Shown piece after piece: positions 1 through 31,026 of a stretch of 64,000 nt of DNA; within the stretch, counting starts at the first letter, position 1; every line of letters begins with the position of its first letter. Both the position numbers and the translations under genes were made by a program. The DNA lies in IMG/VR virus record IMGVR_UViG_3300043313_002018, positions 6,730 through 70,729 of that record. One strand, 5' to 3'. The notes below the pieces were generated by a model that made no database searches, was not told where the DNA came from, and was given only the letters and a program-made list of their open reading frames with translations. This DNA is from a virus.

Positions 1-538
1 AACCGGTGGCCGCGTTGAACAGGTTCGCCCCGGTATTCGCCTGCGTCCCGGCCAGCTGCCCCTGCTCCCCGCCGAGCTTCATCATGGAGTCCGCCGCGCC
101 CGCACGCGCCGCGCTCGGCAGCAGCGCCAGCTTGCTGGCCTTGTCGCGGTTCAGCTCCGCCGTCGCCAGGTCCCGCGTCCCGCCCCGCATGCCGCTCTGC
201 TCGAGCGCCTGCCCGGCGCCCCGATACGTCTCGGTAATTCCGGCACGCTCCGGTGCCAGCGTCTGGTCGATCGCCGCGCGATTCCCGCGCAGCAGCGGGC
301 TGAAGTAGTTGGCGCTCTGGTCGAGGGAGTTGTTCGCGGAGGTGAATTGCTTCTGGGCGCCGCCAAGGAAGCTCCCCGCCGCGTCCCCCATCTTGTCGCC
401 GAACTTCCCGAGCTCAGAGCTCGAGGTCTGGAGGCCCGCTGTCGCGCTGTCCTGCGCCGCCGCGATTTTCTTGTTCTTGCCCCGGTTCATGAAGTACTGG
501 GCGCCCATCGAGATCGCCGGAATCGCTGCTGCTGCCAT
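1..538 (-). CDS. Putative DNA ejection/internal virion (pilot) protein, 5' part; runs off the left edge
   Basis: Not in the ORF track. Read manually from ATG 538 (GGAGG RBS upstream): MAAAAIPAISMGAQYFMNRGKNKKIAAAQDSATAGLQ..., Ala/Gly/Gln-rich, open to position 1. Occupies the P22 gp7 position after the GNAT gene. Confidence 0.65.
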   Translation of the reverse strand, partial: MAAAAIPAISMGAQYFMNRGKNKKIAAAQDSATAGLQTSSSELGKFGDKMGDAAGSFLGGAQKQFTSANNSLDQSANYFSPLLRGNRAAIDQTLAPERAGITETYRGAGQALEQSGMRGGTRDLATAELNRDKASKLALLPSAARAGAADSMMKLGGEQGQLAGTQANTGANLFNAATG

Positions 539-6325: not shown

Positions 6326-7041
6326 TACAACCCACCCCCGCCCGGCGGCACATCCGCCGGCTGCCCGGTGGTCGGCGCATCCGGCACCAGGCTCCACGCA
6401 TACCCTTCCTTCTGGAAGGACGTGTACCAGCGGCTCATCTTGAGCAGCGCGTTGCGCTCGACGGCCGCCTTCACAAACTGCTCCAGGTACGGCTTGGTGC
6501 GATCGAGGAAACTCGCCCCCGCCTTCAGTGCGCACACGTGCAGCGCATACCCGGTGAGCGTGTCGATCTCCTCCGACCCGATGTTCACGAAGTCGCTGTC
6601 GTCGGTCAGCACCGGGGTACTCCGTACCCCGTCGACTTCGAGGCTGCCGACCACGGGGCTCGCCGGGTAGATCGCCAGCAGATTCAATCCTACCGGGGCC
6701 CAGAACAGGGGGCGCGACGGGTGCCCATCCGCCCCCGCGCGCGCCTGCCACCAGTCCGGCGTCAGCATCTGGATCTCCGCCACGCTGACCCCGGTCATGT
6801 TCTTCCCCTGCCACGTCACCGCGGTCTGCTGGGCGAGCGTCCCCGGCACCGGCACCAGCGGGTCGTTCGGCACGTTCCCCACGACGATGCGCCGGCGCCA
6901 GTAGCTCGTGAGCAGGTTCCACGTCCGGAGGGCCTGATTGAGCGCCAGGTTCGCGTCAATCTCGGTCCAGAACGGGCTCGACTCATAGCGCTGCTGCAGG
7001 AGCTGGCGCAGCTGCGCGCGCGTGGTAGTGGTGTAGGGCAT
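6325..7041 (-). CDS. Head-tail adaptor-like protein (paralogue 2)
   Basis: RAQLRQLL...W...ANLALNQALR...LAIYPAS...YALHVCALK adaptor pattern. Confidence 0.6.
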   Translation of the reverse strand: MPYTTTTRAQLRQLLQQRYESSPFWTEIDANLALNQALRTWNLLTSYWRRRIVVGNVPNDPLVPVPGTLAQQTAVTWQGKNMTGVSVAEIQMLTPDWWQARAGADGHPSRPLFWAPVGLNLLAIYPASPVVGSLEVDGVRSTPVLTDDSDFVNIGSEEIDTLTGYALHVCALKAGASFLDRTKPYLEQFVKAAVERNALLKMSRWYTSFQKEGYAWSLVPDAPTTGQPADVPPGGGGL

Positions 7042-7045
7042 CGAC

Positions 7046-7243
7046 CTACTTGCGGGCGATCAGCGCGTTGATCGCCTGCGCGAACTCCTTATTGATCTGC
7101 TGCTGCTGCTCGAGCAGCCGCTCGGTCTGGTAATGCTGCAGGTTGTGCCGCTGGTACATGTTGTAGCCCATGGCCCCAAAGATCCCGGTGAGCAGCGCGC
7201 CTACCATCAGCAGTAGGAGCTGCCCGCGTTGTACTGCCGTCAT
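7046..7243 (-). CDS. Small single-TM protein with a coiled-coil tail
   Basis: Hydrophobic LLLLMVGALLTGIFGAMGY segment; GGAGGCTGAG RBS. Confidence 0.6.
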   Translation of the reverse strand: MTAVQRGQLLLLMVGALLTGIFGAMGYNMYQRHNLQHYQTERLLEQQQQINKEFAQAINALIARK

Positions 7244-25767: not shown

Positions 25768-26292
25768 TTAGGTGTCCGCCATGCCGGGACCGAGCGCACT
25801 GGCGAGGGATTCGTCAGCACCCGGACCCATCTCCGCCTCAACCGGCTCGCCGTCTACCGCGTCGAAGGTGATTTTCTGCCGGCCCTGGCTGTCCGTTAGC
25901 ACCGGCGCGCGCTGCGGCGGCTCGCCGAAGCTGTTCACGAGCATGCCGCCGTTCTTGGTGTCGTTGTTGAAGGCGCGGAAGCGCATCTCCTGCCCGATGC
26001 CGTCGGCGGCCATCTTCGCACTCTCGGATTCCAATCTTCGAACATCGCGCAGCGACTCCATTCGAAGTTGGTCGCCGCTCCCGTCCTGCACGGGGATTTC
26101 CCACGGCGAGGTGTGCCGGAAGCCAATGGCCGCCGAGCGCTCGCCCGTGAGCTTTCCGTGCAGCTCGGGGTGGTAATCCCGCGTCTGCCGCCACTTCATC
26201 GGCACGCCGCAGTGCTCGGGCACCGGCGCCCCGTCGTGCACCGTCACCCGCGCCGAGCACGCCTCACACGCATAACTACGCACCAGCGGCAT
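25768..26292 (-). CDS. Zn-ribbon (FmdB-like) hypothetical protein
   Basis: MPL..Y.CEAC...HCG..M. Confidence 0.55.
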   Translation of the reverse strand: MPLVRSYACEACSARVTVHDGAPVPEHCGVPMKWRQTRDYHPELHGKLTGERSAAIGFRHTSPWEIPVQDGSGDQLRMESLRDVRRLESESAKMAADGIGQEMRFRAFNNDTKNGGMLVNSFGEPPQRAPVLTDSQGRQKITFDAVDGEPVEAEMGPGADESLASALGPGMADT

Positions 26293-26740
26293 CGGCCGGC
26301 TCCTCATCCTCGAGAGAATCATCCGGGTCGAACCCCGGTGTGTAGAACACGCCCTGGGCCCCCGGCGGGATCATAAAGATCTGCTCGATCACTTTCGCGG
26401 CGACCATGCCGATGAAGCGCTCCGTGGTTTCCCCGGCTTTCTGGGCGCGCTCCTCGATCAGCACGAACTGGCTGGGGGTGAACACCAGGCGGGCGTCGCC
26501 CATGTGGATCTGCGCGGTGGCGGACAGGGCACGATCTAAATCCAGCTTGTTGCGCATCGGCAGGCCGGTGCCCAGGCGATCCGCAATCTCCTGCAGCTCG
26601 TGCAGGCTGAGCACCACGCGGCCGTCGGGCGCATGCAGGGTTTCCGTGAGGCGCAGCGCGACCTCCGCCTCGAGCGAGCGGCGCCCCTTCAACTGGGTTT
26701 GCAGCGTCTCCGCCACATCATCGGGGATTGATACCTTCAT
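26276..26740 (-). CDS. Hypothetical protein, possible ribbon-helix-helix DNA binder
   Basis: MKVSIPDDVAETL start with AAAGGA RBS; second motif LVFTPSQF.LIEERA. Confidence 0.5.
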   Translation of the reverse strand: MKVSIPDDVAETLQTQLKGRRSLEAEVALRLTETLHAPDGRVVLSLHELQEIADRLGTGLPMRNKLDLDRALSATAQIHMGDARLVFTPSQFVLIEERAQKAGETTERFIGMVAAKVIEQIFMIPPGAQGVFYTPGFDPDDSLEDEEPADAAGA

Positions 26741-26753
26741 GCGCGCGGTCCTT

Positions 26754-27065
26754 TCAGCGAAGGGAGTCGGTTGGAACGGTAATGTAGCACGGCCGCCGGC
26801 GATCGGCGGCTTGCACGCCCAAGTCGCGCAGGATGGGGTCGTTGCCGTCCTGCCAGGGATCGGGGAATACCCAGCCGCTGGCGCGGTCGTTGTCCGTGTC
26901 GACACTCACCACCGCGAACGGACGCAGGCCAGCTTCCAGGCGCAGCATCCGAAAGGTCTGCCCGATCAGGACGCCGCCGGGACGGTTCGGGGACTTGCCC
27001 TTAGTGCCAGCTGTATTCGTCGTCGTAGATGATGCCCCGGACGTCGTGGAGTTCTTCAACGTCAT
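26754..27065 (-). CDS. Possible hypothetical protein downstream of terminase
   Basis: C-terminal part looks protein-like (RPFAVVSVDTDNDRASGWVFPDP) but the start is uncertain. Confidence 0.3.
   Translation of the reverse strand: MTLKNSTTSGASSTTTNTAGTKGKSPNRPGGVLIGQTFRMLRLEAGLRPFAVVSVDTDNDRASGWVFPDPWQDGNDPILRDLGVQAADRRRPCYITVPTDSLR
26781..26793 (-). promoter_or_regulatory. Internal extended -10 (GCCGTGCTACATT)
   Basis: Same core as GCCGTGCTATAGT at 31045-31057; both sit just upstream of minus-strand starts. Confidence 0.4.
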
Positions 27066-27990
27066 CCTCCTTGTCGTTGCCGCGGTCGGCAAACTGTTGA
27101 ATTTCTGGTTCGGTGTAGGCCATGTTGCGGTAGTCCTTCTTGGCCGCCTGGTCGCCGGCGATCTGGGTTTGTCGCTGGCGCATCTGGGACAGGCGGCGCC
27201 GGCGCTCGTCCAAGGGCTCCCGCTCCCCGCCCATGAGTCGCCAGCAGACAATGTGGCCGATCGCCAAGGACATGATGCAGTCGTCGTGGGCGCCGCGCGC
27301 CGCTTCCGCCTCCCACAGCGCGCCCTCGGTCTGAAAATCCCCCAGCTCCGCGAGCGTCCACGGGGAGTTGATGCGCAGGTCGGGGAGTCCCGTCTGCGGG
27401 TCGAAGTTGGTAACGGCTTCGTGGAAGTGATCGAGCAGCATCGGCCGCGTGCGCTGGGTCGTGTACCACCCGAGCTTGGTGGTGAAGCGCGAGCTCGGAT
27501 CGATCGCGTCGAGCATCTCCCAGCGGTAGAAGTGCGAGTACCCCAGATGCAGTTGCAGCGTGTCCTGCGTGCTCAACCCGTGGTTGTTCGTTTCGATCGC
27601 GGCCAGCGCCTCCAGCCCGTCGTCGTCGCAGTAGTAGCGGCCGAGCGCGTCACAGACGAAGGCGAGCTCTCTGGGTTTCACCTTGTCGCTGATGAACTGG
27701 GCGACCTGCTCCTCGACGCGATCGAGGGTGCCCATACGGGTGACGTCGACTACCGAGCGGTCCTTGCCAATCCCGTCGGAGACGTCTGCGCTCAGCACGT
27801 ACTTGTAGCCCCGCAGCGGCGGCTCCCAGATCTGGCAGACCTCGAGGAGCTCGCCGATCTGCGCGCGTGCGTAGAGCTCCCCCGGCCCGAGCACGCGGAA
27901 GCCGTAGCCCACCGGGATGTAAGCCGGGTTGTCGGTGACCTTCTGGAGCTTCTTGGGGAGCGGCGGGAGGTGCTTGCGCGTGGTGCTCAA
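27001..27990 (-). CDS. terL: Terminase large subunit, C-terminal RNase H-like nuclease domain (separate ORF)
   Basis: YVLSADVSDGIGKDRS, AIETNNHG, LGWYTT..TRP, GAHDDCIMSLAI. TTG start with GGAGG RBS overlapping the upstream TGA. Confidence 0.85.
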   Translation of the reverse strand: MSTTRKHLPPLPKKLQKVTDNPAYIPVGYGFRVLGPGELYARAQIGELLEVCQIWEPPLRGYKYVLSADVSDGIGKDRSVVDVTRMGTLDRVEEQVAQFISDKVKPRELAFVCDALGRYYCDDDGLEALAAIETNNHGLSTQDTLQLHLGYSHFYRWEMLDAIDPSSRFTTKLGWYTTQRTRPMLLDHFHEAVTNFDPQTGLPDLRINSPWTLAELGDFQTEGALWEAEAARGAHDDCIMSLAIGHIVCWRLMGGEREPLDERRRRLSQMRQRQTQIAGDQAAKKDYRNMAYTEPEIQQFADRGNDKEDDVEELHDVRGIIYDDEYSWH

Positions 27991-29399
27991 CTCAGCACCT
28001 CCGCCGGCGGCACGGGGAGTTCCGGTTCGACGACGTGCGGCTGCACGCTCGGGTCATTCTTCAGCCGCTGCACGACCACCGGCCCGCGCTGGGCGCCGGC
28101 AATCTCCCGCGCGACCTCCGCTTCCTGGAACGCGGTGTCGCGGATCTCGGTGATGAGGGAGGCAGGCTGAATGGTGTACAGGGTGCGCAGCGGCCGCGCG
28201 ACGTTGCGGAGCTTGTCGATCTGCTCTGGGCTGAAGATGCTGCGCCCCGAGTACTGAAACGCCTCCCCAGGTTCCGCCGGATACTCCTCGAAGAACTTGT
28301 ACAGCACGCCCTTCTGCTGCGCCGCTTCGTAGCTGCGGAAGTACCAGTAGAGCTGCTCTTTGCTCAGCTCGAACGACCGCCGCATCCACCGCGGCGCGTG
28401 CCGGTTGACCCGCGCGGCGTAATCCAGGCAGTACCCGGGAGGTTCCCAGCCGTCCGGCACCGGCATCCAGTACTTGCTGCGCTCGGCGTACCACGGAATG
28501 AAGATGTTGAAGCTGCGGCCATATCCCCGTTCCGTCGCCAGCCACTCGTTGTGCCACCAGTTGTGGCGACCCTTGGCCGTGCTCTCCTTCATCCAGAGCG
28601 TGCGCGGCGTGCGCGCGATCGCCGGATCGAGGGAGTCGTCAATGGTTTCGGCGTACTCCCAGGTGCTGAGCTCGCTCAGGTGCACGCAGGAGTAGGTCTT
28701 CGATCGACCCAGTTGCCCCTTCTGCCCACCCTCGTCCGAGAGGCCGCCCTTCATGCTCTTGCCGGCTTCCACGACCACGCTCGAGTGATTCGTGAACACA
28801 ATGTGCCGGTCCTTCGTGTGAAACTTCTCCCCGGGCTTCAGCCACCAGGGCAGCTCCTCGACCACCAGCTCCAGCATCCCGAACAAGCCCGTGCTCCCCG
28901 AATTCTCGGGCACGTCGCTTGCAATCATGCTCTTTGTGTACGATTGCGTCGTCGTCCGATGAGCCACCAAACTCTGGCAGAGCGTGCTGGCGCCCAGCTG
29001 ACGGCCCTTCAGAATATTCCCCACGAGGCCGTCCGGATGGCCGCTCGAGAAACGCTTCTCTTCCTCGTCGGCGAGCGCCGCCAGGATCAGCTCCTGGGAT
29101 TCCCACAACGGGTACATCGGCGACACGCCGGTATCCGGGCGAATGATCTTGCAGTAGCGCTCGGCCCAGTGGCGCCAGCTGAGTTTCGTCAGCACCCGCT
29201 CGTTGCGGATGAACCACTGCTCGTCCGCGGAGAGCGCGCGGATGACGCCTTTCTTGGGATCGTGCGCGGTGGCGAGCTGCCGGGTAAGCAGCTGGCACTG
29301 GGGGACTGGCAGGCTCTCCACCGCGCCGCCGACGGCTGCGCCAAGGGGTGAGCCGAGCAGCAGCTTGAGCCGCGCGTCGACGACAGCCTGGGAGTACAT
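27987..29399 (-). CDS. terL: Terminase large subunit, N-terminal ATPase domain (separate ORF)
   Basis: Walker A ILKGRQLGAST, Walker B VHLSELSTW, ESTAKG...W..EW, FFEEYP....EAF; start MYSQAVV at 29399. Confidence 0.85.
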   Translation of the reverse strand: MYSQAVVDARLKLLLGSPLGAAVGGAVESLPVPQCQLLTRQLATAHDPKKGVIRALSADEQWFIRNERVLTKLSWRHWAERYCKIIRPDTGVSPMYPLWESQELILAALADEEEKRFSSGHPDGLVGNILKGRQLGASTLCQSLVAHRTTTQSYTKSMIASDVPENSGSTGLFGMLELVVEELPWWLKPGEKFHTKDRHIVFTNHSSVVVEAGKSMKGGLSDEGGQKGQLGRSKTYSCVHLSELSTWEYAETIDDSLDPAIARTPRTLWMKESTAKGRHNWWHNEWLATERGYGRSFNIFIPWYAERSKYWMPVPDGWEPPGYCLDYAARVNRHAPRWMRRSFELSKEQLYWYFRSYEAAQQKGVLYKFFEEYPAEPGEAFQYSGRSIFSPEQIDKLRNVARPLRTLYTIQPASLITEIRDTAFQEAEVAREIAGAQRGPVVVQRLKNDPSVQPHVVEPELPVPPAEVLS

Positions 29400-29415: not shown

Positions 29416-29703
29416 CTAGGGGCCGCCCCAGGTGGCGCGCAGGGAGACGCCGCCAACCCAGCTCCGATCGAGCGGCGCATTCCACCCGCTCTTACCGATC
29501 CACAGTGCCGCGGTCATTTTCCCGTCCGCACTGCGACTGGCAATCACCAGATTCACCCCGGTGCGCGTCTGCACGTTGAGCGCCGCGGTAGTCGCACCCG
29601 CCGGCACCTTCTCGAGCTCGAGCGCCACCTGCCGCTGCAGGTCGTCGCTGAGGGTGGCCGCCGGAAACGGCACCACTGCGACGCCCGGTAGTGTCTCAGA
29701 CAT
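29416..29703 (-). CDS. Hypothetical protein (amphipathic beta-strands)
   Basis: Coupled ORF in the lysis region. Confidence 0.45.
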   Translation of the reverse strand: MSETLPGVAVVPFPAATLSDDLQRQVALELEKVPAGATTAALNVQTRTGVNLVIASRSADGKMTAALWIGKSGWNAPLDRSWVGGVSLRATWGGP

Positions 29704-30085
29704 TGCCGGTCAGCAGCGGGAACTTGCCTTCGAGCTTGCCGAAGATCGTCACTAGATCCTTGAGCAACGCCACCGTCGGCCCGGCAATCGCCAGCAGCGA
29801 CGCCTTCTTTAGGACGTCCGCAAAGTCCCCGCTCGGAATCATGTCGTGCCCGTAGGAGGTCAGCATCGCGGTGATGATGCCCACGAGCGCCGTGAAGTAG
29901 GCATTGCCAAACCGGATGAGCAGCGCCAGCGCCACCGGCACGACCTTCACCACGATATTCGGCGTGGTCGTGCCCGGCGTCACCATCACCTGGTCGTGCA
30001 TGTGCGGCGGGAGGCCGTCGCCGTCGGTCCCGGCGACCACGGCGACCTTAACCGGTACCGGGCCGATGAACTGCTCGTCTGCCAT
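29696..30085 (-). CDS. Holin-like membrane protein (2 TM)
   Basis: VVPVALALLIRFGNAYFTALVGIITAML and ASLLAIAGPTVALL hydrophobic helices. Confidence 0.5.
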   Translation of the reverse strand: MADEQFIGPVPVKVAVVAGTDGDGLPPHMHDQVMVTPGTTTPNIVVKVVPVALALLIRFGNAYFTALVGIITAMLTSYGHDMIPSGDFADVLKKASLLAIAGPTVALLKDLVTIFGKLEGKFPLLTGNV

Positions 30086-30098
30086 GGGGGACCCCTTC

Positions 30099-30806
30099 CT
30101 ACCAGACGATCGGCGGCTTGCCCTGGGATGTGCGCTCAGCGTTCAGCGCCGCGCGCCATTCCGGCTGGTGCTTGGCGATCGACGCCTCGATCGTCTTGCA
30201 GTTGCCGACCAAGAAGTCGTAGTTCGTGCGGTGCGGCCACGTGCCGCATTCGCCGTCGAGGCCGGGCTTCTCCGCCCGCTTGTAGTCCTCCTCGAGCAGA
30301 CGGGTGATTTTCTTCCCGCCTTCATCGCCGCCGAGGGACTCGTAACTCGGGTACACGGGCGTCGCCGGCACCGGCGGAATCGGGGGCACCACCACCCCGC
30401 CACCCGTGAGGTAGCTCAGTTCATCCGCGGTCAGCGGCTTGGGCGCCACCCACAGGTTGTTCGTGCGCCGTTCCTTGAGGTCGGCCGGCGTCAACCGGGT
30501 CACGAGCGTCGCGCCCGGCGCGCCACTCCCGCCCACCAAGTCGATGACGTTGAGCAGATCGGCCTGATCGCCGTTGCCGGCAATCGCGTCTTCGGCCCAG
30601 CCATCGACGTTGGTTTCGCCCGAGGTTTTGCTGAGCCACCCGCACAGCGTGCGATCGCCACTGGGGTTGACGTCGTACGCCACGAGACGCGCGAACAAGC
30701 TGGCCGCGCGCTGGTCGCCGGCTTTCACACGAACGAAGTAGCCCTGCGCTTCGCGGGCCTGGGCCATCTGCAGGATACGATCGAGGTGCGGCTGTGAGAC
30801 GGGCAT
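30099..30806 (-). CDS. Hypothetical lysis-region protein sharing a motif with the needle tip domain
   Basis: GWLSKTSG...EDAIA...IDLVGG; Pro linker; helical C-terminal domain; AGGAG RBS. Confidence 0.6.
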   Translation of the reverse strand: MPVSQPHLDRILQMAQAREAQGYFVRVKAGDQRAASLFARLVAYDVNPSGDRTLCGWLSKTSGETNVDGWAEDAIAGNGDQADLLNVIDLVGGSGAPGATLVTRLTPADLKERRTNNLWVAPKPLTADELSYLTGGGVVVPPIPPVPATPVYPSYESLGGDEGGKKITRLLEEDYKRAEKPGLDGECGTWPHRTNYDFLVGNCKTIEASIAKHQPEWRAALNAERTSQGKPPIVW

Positions 30807-30837
30807 GCGCGTGCTCCTGGAATGGACGGTTGCGAAT

Positions 30838-31026
30838 TTAATGCGGCCGAGCGATATCAAACGGTGGCGCACATCCCGCTTCCTGCATGAGGCACAGCAG
30901 CAGGATGATCGCGGCCGTCCCTACCAGCACCGCCATCAGCCACTTGGGCATCGGGGTCCCGGTCAGCACGCAGTACAACACCACCAGCAGGACAATCAGG
31001 CCAATGACGCTCAGAATCAGGCTCAT
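30838..31026 (-). CDS. Small two-TM membrane protein
   Basis: MSLILSVIGLIVLLVVLYCVL..TPMPKWL..VLV...IILLL. Confidence 0.6.
   Translation of the reverse strand: MSLILSVIGLIVLLVVLYCVLTGTPMPKWLMAVLVGTAAIILLLCLMQEAGCAPPFDIARPH

What the first reader, a model, noticed from the sequence alone, without database searches (positions are those of the whole stretch)
27001..29399. Terminase large subunit split cleanly into ATPase and nuclease genes
Seen: the ATPase ORF ends in a Pro-rich tail (PELPVPPAEVLS*), and the nuclease ORF starts at a TTG overlapping that TGA, with its own GGAGG RBS and an N-terminal extension. There is no intron, intein or HNH between them, and both catalytic motif sets are intact. 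Established: TerL is normally one polypeptide; herpesvirus UL15 is split by splicing and some phage terL genes by introns. Inference: a natural two-subunit packaging motor.
Basis: partly seen in the sequence, partly recalled or inferred. Interest (0 to 1): 0.65.

Follow-up and report, generated by a model that had tools for sequence, protein, structure and literature searches.

The report
Two-gene large terminase in soil phage
This complete 72-kb uncultured soil phage, like well over a hundred related phages, encodes its DNA-packaging enzyme as two back-to-back genes (a motor ATPase and a DNA-cutting nuclease) rather than the usual single protein. That offers a natural test of whether the motor needs its two halves covalently joined.

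Summary
On the minus strand an ATPase gene (29399..27987) ends in ...PELPVPPAEVLS-TGA. A nuclease gene (27990..27001) starts at a TTG that overlaps that stop (TTGA, -1 frame), 7 nt after a GGAGG.

It is not an assembly indel or a programmed frameshift:
- About 107 of the 120 best ATPase homologues (down to 48% identity) are ATPase-only.
- About 25 related loci break at the same homologous point, yet the frame relation and junction type differ even at 74-86% identity.
- Seven relatives carry a small gene in the junction, one of them Tad2-like.
- There is no slippery site, intron, intein or HNH.

Both halves model confidently as T4 gp17-type domains (Z 23.8 and 22.4), and their catalytic residues are invariant.

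- The break is not at the hinge. It lies about 85 residues past the ATPase domain, inside a connector of about 130 residues. The ATPase chain keeps a segment that a complex model docks on the nuclease (ipSAE 0.75; best control 0.00).
- Fused relatives exist at 55-61% identity, and a tree needs at least 14 fused/split changes.

I found no paper describing an intron-less split TerL. This scan has noted other, unrelated split terminases on other DNA.

The parts
27987..29399 (-). terL-A: large-terminase ATPase subunit gene (470 aa from the MYSQ start; TGA stop at 27989-27987)
   Evidence: ORF. Homologues all start at this Met. PHROG TerL hits. AF2 model pLDDT 86. T4 gp17 ATPase domain matched at Z 23.8, rmsd 2.6, 267 aligned; Foldseek 8e-15.
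28986..29009 (-). Deviant Walker A, K131-GRQLGA-S138
   Evidence: Aligned to T4 gp17 SRQLGKT. K131, R133, Q134, G136 and S138 are invariant in 64 sequences. The canonical Lys position is Ala.
28671..28673 (-). E243 in VHLSE, the presumed Walker B catalytic glutamate
   Evidence: Invariant in alignment A2. The assignment to Walker B is inferred from its position in the fold; there is no residue-level structural alignment.
28245..29291 (-). Canonical TerL ATPase domain (residues 37-385)
   Evidence: Model range 37..385 aligns to T4 gp17 residues 73..360.
28161..28250 (-). Predicted docking arm of the ATPase chain (residues 384-413, SGRSIFSPEQIDKLRNVARPLRTLYTIQPA)
   Evidence: These are the only chain-1 residues at the confident interface in the complex model. 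The 402-406 stretch pairs antiparallel with nuclease residues 54-56. pLDDT is lower (63-70) when the ATPase is folded alone.
27990..28160 (-). ATPase C-terminal helix (413-437) and disordered Pro/acid-rich tail (438-470)
   Evidence: helix 413-437; pLDDT below 55 after residue 440. The tail is conserved among 74-86% relatives. It is absent from fused relatives.
27998..28002 (-). GGAGG Shine-Dalgarno sequence for the nuclease gene, inside the ATPase codons for A-E-V
   Evidence: Read directly from the sequence. It lies 7 nt upstream of the TTG.
27987..27990 (-). TTGA stop/start overlap (TTG start of the nuclease, TGA stop of the ATPase)
   Evidence: No -1 slippery heptamer and no homopolymer of 5 or more bases in the 78-nt region upstream.
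27001..27990 (-). terL-N: large-terminase nuclease subunit gene (329 aa; stop at 27003-27001)
   Evidence: ORF. Profile match to the RB49 gp17 nuclease 8.4e-20 and to T4 gp17 about 1e-14. AF2 model pLDDT 86.3. T4 gp17 379-561 matched at Z 22.4, rmsd 2.0, 180 aligned. It is the only copy in the 71.8-kb genome.
27850..27990 (-). Nuclease N-terminal connector segment (residues 1-47, includes LPPLPKKLQKVTDNPAYIPVGYGF)
   Evidence: Conserved and collinear with the interdomain region of fused relatives. Residues 28-34 are at the predicted interface.
27229..27849 (-). RNase H/RuvC-like nuclease core (residues 48-254), with D69 (27784-27786), E133 (27592-27594) and D236-D237 (27280-27285)
   Evidence: aligned with the RB49/T4 gp17 acidic residues. 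These residues are invariant in 49 sequences.
27004..27228 (-). Nuclease C-terminal helical extension and acidic tail (residues 255-329, ...EELHDVRGIIYDDEYSWH)
   Evidence: Helices 260-282 and 294-304. The tail is conserved in fused relatives. A portal-binding role is an inference by analogy with other TerL C-termini; it was not tested.

Best explanation
The phage's large terminase is encoded as two translationally coupled cistrons that yield two polypeptides.

- TerL-A (470 aa) carries the complete T4 gp17-type ATPase domain. It also carries the hinge, a docking arm of about 30 residues, a helix and a disordered tail.
- TerL-N (329 aa) carries the rest of the interdomain connector, the RNase H-like nuclease core and a C-terminal acidic tail.

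Ribosomes finishing TerL-A at the TGA would start TerL-N at the overlapping TTG, using the GGAGG embedded in the last TerL-A codons.

The two chains then assemble non-covalently. The TerL-A arm (residues 384-413) packs on TerL-N and adds a beta-strand next to TerL-N residues 50-57. The complex would therefore behave like an ordinary single-chain TerL in packaging and DNA cutting.

What is shown: the gene structure, its conservation, the folds and the catalytic residues. What is inferred: reinitiation at the TTG, the non-covalent assembly, and function as a motor.

The arrangement is an evolved, stable state. It is shared by a large clade of uncultured soil phages. Related lineages have switched between fused and split forms repeatedly, and several use the junction as a slot for small accessory genes.
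For: Gene structure.

Conservation of the split:
- Of the 120 best ATPase homologues, about 107 are 413-495 aa ATPase-only proteins at 48-86% identity. Four are fused and nine are ATPase-only with inteins.
- Eighteen IMG/VR loci break at the same homologous point. So do five further contigs and two MAG loci.
- Junctions differ between loci: TTGA/ATGA 4-nt overlaps, TGATG/TAGTG/TAATG 1-nt overlaps, an 11-nt overlap, an in-frame TAG-ATG, and gaps.
- All three frame relations occur. The three closest relatives (74, 80 and 86% identity) each differ from the window.
- In L007, L009, L016, L020, L021, L024 and L079 a small ORF sits between the halves, with stop/start overlaps on both sides. One is Tad2-like, PF11195, 2.8e-23.

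No alternative joining mechanism: Rfam finds no family in six gapped relatives. There is no slippery heptamer or homopolymer in the window overlap. Pfam finds no intein or HNH.

Folds and motifs.

Association: the complex model gives ipSAE 0.75 (median of 3 runs) against a best control of 0.00.
- That mark was reached by 58 of 80 solved complexes and 2 of 110 mismatched pairs. These counts hold only roughly, because my own alignments were used.
- The runs agree in at least 70% of contacts, and the partner's pLDDT is at least 65.
- One-chain TerL structures are solved, so this pass may reflect likeness to them and not evidence that these two chains bind.

Genome context: the record is a complete 71.8-kb phage genome with terminal repeats and holds a single nuclease copy.
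Against: - There is no direct evidence (reads, RNA or protein) from this phage.
- TTG is a weak start, so the amount of TerL-N made is unknown.
- The Walker A lacks the canonical lysine, and Ser replaces the usual Walker B Asp. ATPase activity therefore rests on analogy with deviant terminase P-loops (my recollection of lambda gpA, KSARVGYS).
- The complex prediction could be recalled from fused TerL structures.
- The nearest lineage in the 50%-identity library is fused, so the two states are interconvertible. A low level of fusion product by an unconventional recoding event cannot be formally excluded.
Confidence: 0.85

Rival explanations
1. Sequencing or assembly indel: the gene is really one fused terL, and a 1-nt error near 27990 created the apparent split.
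For: Fused relatives exist at 55-61% identity (P0029, P0030, P0044, P0050, P0121). Read support could not be checked.
Against: Relatives at 74-86% identity from other samples have the ATPase stop and a separate nuclease start at the same place, with different junction sequences. About 107 of the 120 best hits are ATPase-only. The window's ATPase carries a conserved tail of about 30 residues ending in AEVLS-stop. That tail is absent from fused forms, so removing a single base would not recreate the fused sequence.
Confidence: 0.02
2. Programmed -1 ribosomal frameshift or transcriptional slippage: the two ORFs are decoded as one TerL, possibly alongside a short ATPase-only product.
For: The nuclease ORF is in the -1 frame with a short overlap, the geometry used by known frameshift genes. 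Fused relatives show that a single chain works.
Against: There is no X XXY YYZ heptamer and no homopolymer run of 5 or more bases in the 78-nt overlap region. Relatives have +1, -1 and 0 frame relations, in-frame stops, gaps of 30-450 nt and inserted genes, so no shared recoding mechanism is possible. A good GGAGG-N7-TTG initiation site is present.
Confidence: 0.04
3. The two chains are rejoined after translation by a split intein (protein trans-splicing), or the RNA is spliced.
For: Relatives of this ATPase carry inteins at two sites. The extra segments flanking the break (85 and 47 residues) are roughly the size of split-intein halves.
Against: Pfam finds no intein domain in either protein. 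There is no HN-C/S/T boundary. Both flanking segments are conserved in sequence inside fused relatives, so they are retained protein and not excised. A 4-nt overlap leaves no room for an intron, and Rfam finds no RNA family in six gapped relatives.
Confidence: 0.02
4. The two proteins do not form a stable complex. The ATPase alone is the packaging motor (phi29-like), and the nuclease acts as a free, separately recruited headful or terminal cutter.
For: phi29-type ATPases package without an active nuclease domain; phi29 and phi28 ATPases appear among the structural matches at Z 11.7. Separate cistrons and a weak TTG start allow unequal amounts. Genes can be inserted between the halves.
Against: The complex model places a specific ATPase arm on the nuclease with a score of 0.75 against a best control of 0.00 (with its caveats). 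That arm and the nuclease N-terminal segment are conserved in both split and fused forms. The genes stay adjacent and stop/start-coupled in nearly all relatives.
Confidence: 0.1

Closest known systems
T4 gp17-type large terminase (T4 and RB49 gp17; PDB 2o0h, 3cpe, 3c6a)
   Same: Same two folds and same order. The ATPase model (37-385) matches gp17 73-360 at Z 23.8. The nuclease model (48-254) matches gp17 379-561 at Z 22.4 with 25% identity. The RQLG P-loop core and the Asp/Glu/Asp nuclease residues align.
   Different: Two polypeptides instead of one. About 130 residues (ATPase 386-470 plus nuclease 1-47) stand where gp17 has about 18 (361-378). The Walker A Lys is replaced by Ala, with an invariant Lys upstream.
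terL genes interrupted by group I introns or inteins (Jug phages, PMC12880540; Staphylococcus phage Twort, PMC13729910; cyanophage Mic1 inteins, PMC7156551)
   Same: terL appears as more than one ORF or carries extra sequence. Relatives of this ATPase do carry inteins in or just upstream of the P-loop.
   Different: In those cases RNA or protein splicing restores a single chain. Here there is a 4-nt overlap, no intron, no intein and no homing endonuclease at the break. The junction varies freely among relatives.
Herpesvirus pUL15 (spliced terminase gene)
   Same: It has the same ATPase plus RNase H-like nuclease architecture. The nuclease model matches the HSV and HCMV nuclease domains at Z 13-14.
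   Different: Here two proteins are predicted.
phi29-type packaging ATPase (gp16; phi28 gp11)
   Same: It is a stand-alone ASCE packaging ATPase chain; structural matches at Z 11.7.
   Different: phi29 has only a vestigial nuclease-like C-terminal domain (PMC7672431) and no cutting partner. Here a fully equipped nuclease is encoded immediately downstream and is predicted to dock on the ATPase chain.
Other split terminases noted earlier in this scan on unrelated DNA (e1-3286506, e1-4443250, e1-3297453, e1-3540540, e1-5285024, e1-1434960)
   Same: ATPase and nuclease parts are encoded as separate conserved genes without an intron or intein. Some also carry variable genes in the gap (AI notes, not checked here).
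   Different: Those are different TerL lineages, mostly with kilobases or other genes between the halves, or in permuted order. Here the halves overlap by 4 nt, and the family switches repeatedly between fused and split.

Membership tests
Large terminase TerL, T4 gp17 type | N-terminal ASCE P-loop ATPase domain of the terminase type | tested here: met
   Z 23.8, rmsd 2.6, 267 aligned to 2o0h. Foldseek 8.4e-15 to 2o0j.
Large terminase TerL, T4 gp17 type | Walker A with catalytic lysine (T4 SRQLGKT) | tested here: inconclusive
   The motif aligns as KGRQLGAS. The canonical Lys is Ala, and an invariant Lys lies six residues upstream. Deviant terminase P-loops of this layout are known from memory (lambda gpA). 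Activity was not tested.
Large terminase TerL, T4 gp17 type | Walker B hhhhDE with catalytic glutamate | tested here: inconclusive
   VHLSE has an invariant E243. Ser occupies the usual Asp position. No residue-level structural alignment was made.
Large terminase TerL, T4 gp17 type | C-terminal RNase H/RuvC-like nuclease with conserved acidic metal ligands | tested here: met
   Profile E 8.4e-20 to the RB49 gp17 nuclease. D69, E133 and D236/D237 align with its acidic residues and are invariant. Z 22.4 to 3cpe.
Large terminase TerL, T4 gp17 type | Both domains on one polypeptide joined by a linker | tested here: not met
   A stop and a new start separate them. The split is conserved in about 25 loci.
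Intron- or intein-interrupted terL | Self-splicing intron, intein or homing endonuclease at the break | tested here: not met
   A 4-nt overlap. No Pfam intein or HNH domain. No Rfam family in six gapped relatives at E up to 0.1.
Programmed -1 frameshift gene | In-frame slippery heptamer and a frame relation conserved among relatives | tested here: not met
   No heptamer or homopolymer. Frame relations 0, +1 and -1 all occur among relatives.
Two-subunit (non-covalent) TerL | The two chains bind each other | tested here: inconclusive
   The model supports binding: ipSAE 0.75 against a best control of 0.00. The mark was reached by 58 of 80 solved complexes and 2 of 110 mismatched pairs. Contact agreement is at least 70% and partner pLDDT at least 65. 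The pass may reflect likeness to solved one-chain TerLs. There is no experiment.

The most novel reading that the evidence does not exclude
The split is adaptive, not neutral. Separating the halves lets the phage make less nuclease than ATPase (weak TTG reinitiation). It creates a protected, late-expressed slot at the junction for small counter-defence genes, such as the Tad2-like gene in one relative. It may also alter the single-chain TerL surface that bacterial Avs-type sensors recognise. Under such pressure this TerL family would flip repeatedly between one-chain and two-chain forms.
Probability: 0.15. Interest if true: 0.8.

Novelty: new variant of a known kind. Interest (0 to 1): 0.6.

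Why it matters
Current accounts describe TerL as two domains on one chain. In those accounts the covalent linker transmits nucleotide-dependent movements from the ATPase to the nuclease and helps regulate cutting (2026 review PMC13595956).

A large natural clade in which the chain is broken, next to fused sister lineages at 55-61% identity, gives matched natural pairs for testing what the covalent link contributes to force generation, headful cutting and portal attachment. It also matters for annotation: terL is a standard phage marker, and neither half here hits any Pfam terminase family. Finally, the junction acts as an insertion site for accessory genes, including a Tad2-like anti-Thoeris homologue, and so points to a recurring place to look for counter-defence genes.

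Tried and rejected

2. Linker duplication as the origin of the split. The ATPase tail (PVVVQRLKNDPSVQP) looks like the nuclease N-terminus and the fused linker (PRKLQRLTDDPFVIP), with 8 of 15 residues identical. An HMM of that segment scored the ATPase tails no better than reversed decoys (best real score -1.5; best decoy 0.2). The idea is not supported.

3. Programmed frameshift: rejected.

4. Split intein or intron: rejected.

5. The search for related loci with the nuclease alignment A3 failed because no stretch was conserved enough. The ATPase alignment A2 found only 3 MAG loci.

6. Pfam on both halves and on neighbouring genes gave nothing. PHROGs gave only weak TerL and portal hits. No small terminase was identified.

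7. Literature: four searches and five papers examined turned up intron- or intein-split terL only. P2 'terminase ATPase/endonuclease subunit' names refer to the large and small subunits, not to a domain split (my own knowledge).

8. Direction of change (fission versus fusion) could not be determined, because the tree is unrooted.
Full report
**1. Observation**

On the minus strand an ORF runs from 29480 (first ATG) to the TGA at 27989-27987. All homologues begin at the Met of MYSQAVV (29399), so the gene is 29399..27987 and encodes 470 aa. It ends ...PHVVEPELPVPPAEVLS*.

A second ORF starts at TTG 27990-27988 and ends at 27001 (329 aa).
- The two share the tetranucleotide TTGA, and the second ORF is in the -1 frame.
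- Its frame is open for only 21 codons upstream of the TTG and contains no other start codon.
- The next in-frame start downstream (GTG, residue 27) would delete a conserved N-terminus.
- GGAGG lies at 28002-27998, 7 nt before the TTG.

**2. What the two proteins are**

Pfam finds nothing in either. PHROGs gives weak large-terminase hits to both.

With alignments of 64 ATPase and 49 nuclease sequences (A2 and A3), AlphaFold2 models are confident, with pLDDT 86.0 and 86.3.

| Half | Model range | T4 gp17 range | Z | rmsd | Aligned |
|---|---|---|---|---|---|
| ATPase | 37-385 | 73-360 | 23.8 | 2.6 | 267 |
| Nuclease | 48-254 | 379-561 | 22.4 | 2.0 | 180 |

- Foldseek gives 8e-15 for the ATPase and 4e-11 for the nuclease against T4 gp17.
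- The nuclease alignment also matches the RB49 gp17 nuclease by sequence profile at 8.4e-20.
- In the HMM alignments, KGRQLGAS aligns with T4 SRQLGKT. D69, E133 and D236/D237 align with the acidic residues of the gp17 nuclease. All are invariant.
- The Walker A is deviant. The canonical Lys is Ala, and an invariant Lys sits six residues upstream. From memory this is the layout of lambda gpA.
- The Walker B reads VHLSE, with an invariant Glu.

**3. Is the split real?**

Of the 120 best ATPase homologues among 5.8 billion clusters:
- about 107 are 413-495 aa ATPase-only proteins at 48-86% identity;
- four are fused proteins of 762-769 aa;
- nine are ATPase-only proteins carrying inteins.

I examined the DNA junction in 18 IMG/VR loci, five further contigs and two MAG loci. 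All break at the same homologous place, just before the ...IPPGYGF segment.

The junctions differ:
- 4-nt ATGA/TTGA overlaps: window, L010, L011-13, L014, L077 and the P0126 contig.
- 1-nt TGATG/TAGTG/TAATG overlaps: L003-5, L008, L080, L081.
- An 11-nt overlap: L001.
- An in-frame TAG-ATG: L017.
- Gaps.

The nuclease is in the +1, -1 or 0 frame in different relatives. The three closest relatives (86, 80 and 74% identity) have TAGTG, TGATG followed by a 29-codon micro-ORF, and TAATG respectively.

In L007, L009, L016, L020, L021, L024 and L079 a small ORF is wedged between the halves, with stop/start overlaps at both ends. The one in L009 is a Tad2-like protein (PF11195, 2.8e-23).

Rfam finds no family in six of the gapped loci. 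The window's overlap region has no -1 slippery heptamer and no homopolymer.

These facts exclude an assembly indel, a shared programmed frameshift, and an intron. A split intein is excluded because the segments flanking the break are retained, in sequence, inside fused relatives, and because no intein domain is detected.

**4. Where the break lies**

The canonical ATPase domain ends at residue 385, equivalent to T4 gp17 residue 360. The nuclease core begins at residue 48 of the second protein, equivalent to gp17 residue 379.

The 18 residues of gp17 between these points correspond here to about 130 residues: ATPase 386-470 plus nuclease 1-47. Fused relatives have about 100 residues there. So the family has a long connector, and the break is inside it, not at the hinge.

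A complex model with three controls scores ipSAE 0.75 (median of 3 runs) against a best control of 0.00.
- This mark was reached by 58 of 80 solved complexes and 2 of 110 mismatched pairs. The counts hold only roughly, because my own alignments were used.
- The runs agree in at least 70% of contacts, and the partner's pLDDT is at least 65.
- The confident interface is ATPase 384-413 against nuclease 28-34, 50-57 and 190-231.
- Residues 402-406 pair antiparallel with nuclease 54-56, that is, strand addition.
- The same ATPase segment has only moderate confidence when folded alone (pLDDT 63-70).

One-chain TerL structures are solved, so the pass may come from likeness to them. It supports binding but does not show it.

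My reading is that the ATPase chain keeps the hinge and a docking arm, and the chain is cut in a loop-like excursion after it. The two-chain enzyme could then adopt the geometry of a normal TerL.

**5. Evolution**

A search of 1.84 billion representatives with the nuclease finds 2056 relatives. Both stand-alone nucleases (about 260-330 aa) and fused proteins (about 700-790 aa, or more than 1000 aa with inteins) are among the best hits.

I built a quick maximum-likelihood tree of 112 nuclease domains: the window plus 111 of 153 candidate proteins. The 42 left out had under 185 aligned residues, a match beginning after query residue 60, or an ambiguous state.
- The tree holds 72 fused and 40 split rows.
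- It needs 22 changes of state, of which at least 14 are forced by well-supported branches.
- The window's nearest lineage is a fused clade: P0121, P0029, P0030, P0044, P0050.
- Three split representatives in the surrounding clade were confirmed at the gene level to have an upstream gene abutting or overlapping them: a complete 438-aa gene before P0126, and genes cut by the contig end before P0122 and P0134.

Some 'split' tips elsewhere in the tree may still be fragments. The tree is unrooted, so I cannot say which changes were fissions and which were fusions.

A tempting origin by duplication of the linker was tested and is not supported.

**6. Context**

The window is part of a 71,802-bp IMG/VR virus record with terminal repeats, rated complete. 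It holds a single nuclease copy.

The best cultured relatives are the Tunturiibacter (Acidobacteria) phages Tunturi_1 and Tunturi_2, at 27-33% identity. Their TerL is one gene. MAG loci come from Gemmatimonadales and Acidobacteria bins.

**7. Comparison with what is known**

Published split terL genes that I could find are interrupted by group I introns or inteins and are restored by splicing (PMC12880540, PMC13729910, PMC7156551). A 2026 review describes TerL only as two domains joined by a linker that transmits conformational signals (PMC13595956). I found no paper on an intron-less ATPase/nuclease two-gene TerL.

Earlier AI notes of this scan report split terminases in several unrelated lineages, so the phenomenon is not unique to this phage. 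This case differs in three ways: the 4-nt overlap, the position of the break within a long connector, and the frequent fused/split switching.

**8. Verdict**

This is a real, conserved, two-cistron large terminase. It very probably produces two chains that reassemble (confidence 0.85 for the two-gene reading; the assembly step is inferred). It is a new variant of a known kind, of moderate to high interest.

Noticed in passing
L009:2693-2977 (IMG/VR relative): A 94-aa Tad2-like gene (PF11195, E 2.8e-23), a homologue of the anti-Thoeris sponge, sits exactly between the ATPase and nuclease genes. It has an ATGA overlap upstream and a TGATG overlap downstream.
   Followed up: partly
L016:2765-2998, L020:2741-2965, L021:1343-1780, L024:2674-2976, L007:710-862, L079:2907-2996: Other relatives carry unrelated small ORFs of 29-145 aa in the same junction, all stop/start-coupled on both sides. 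They include a Cys-rich 74-77 aa protein, a 145-aa protein and a 100-aa protein with a twin-arginine-like N-terminus. None has a Pfam hit. The junction behaves as an insertion slot for accessory genes.
   Followed up: partly
Proteins P0011, P0014, P0023, P0028, P0085, P0102, P0064, P0096 (relatives of window 27987-29399): ATPase-only relatives carry inteins at two different sites. One is inside the P-loop (GRQLGA|C...HN|S). The other is upstream, at AERY|C. P0064 has LAGLIDADG and intein-splicing Pfam domains. The window itself has no intein.
   Followed up: partly
window 28986-29009: The whole family has a deviant Walker A (KGRQLGAS). The canonical P-loop lysine is replaced by alanine, with an invariant lysine six residues upstream. 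The Walker B reads VHLSE, with Ser where Asp is usual.
   Followed up: partly
window 25768-26905 and 29416-30872: There is no recognisable small terminase. The ORFs flanking the terminase genes (95, 129 and 257 aa upstream; 209 and 184 aa between the nuclease and the 722-aa portal) have no Pfam hits and no PHROG hit better than E 0.0098. The portal itself is only weakly recognised (phrog_156, E 0.002).
   Followed up: partly
L072:5767-5976 and 6894-7187 (fused relative, NCBI GCA_040384045.1): Downstream of the fused terL, this relative has genes with Acb2/Tad1-hairpin (PF24729) and Lockin (PF26760) Pfam hits. Counter-defence genes therefore cluster near terL in this phage group.
   Followed up: no
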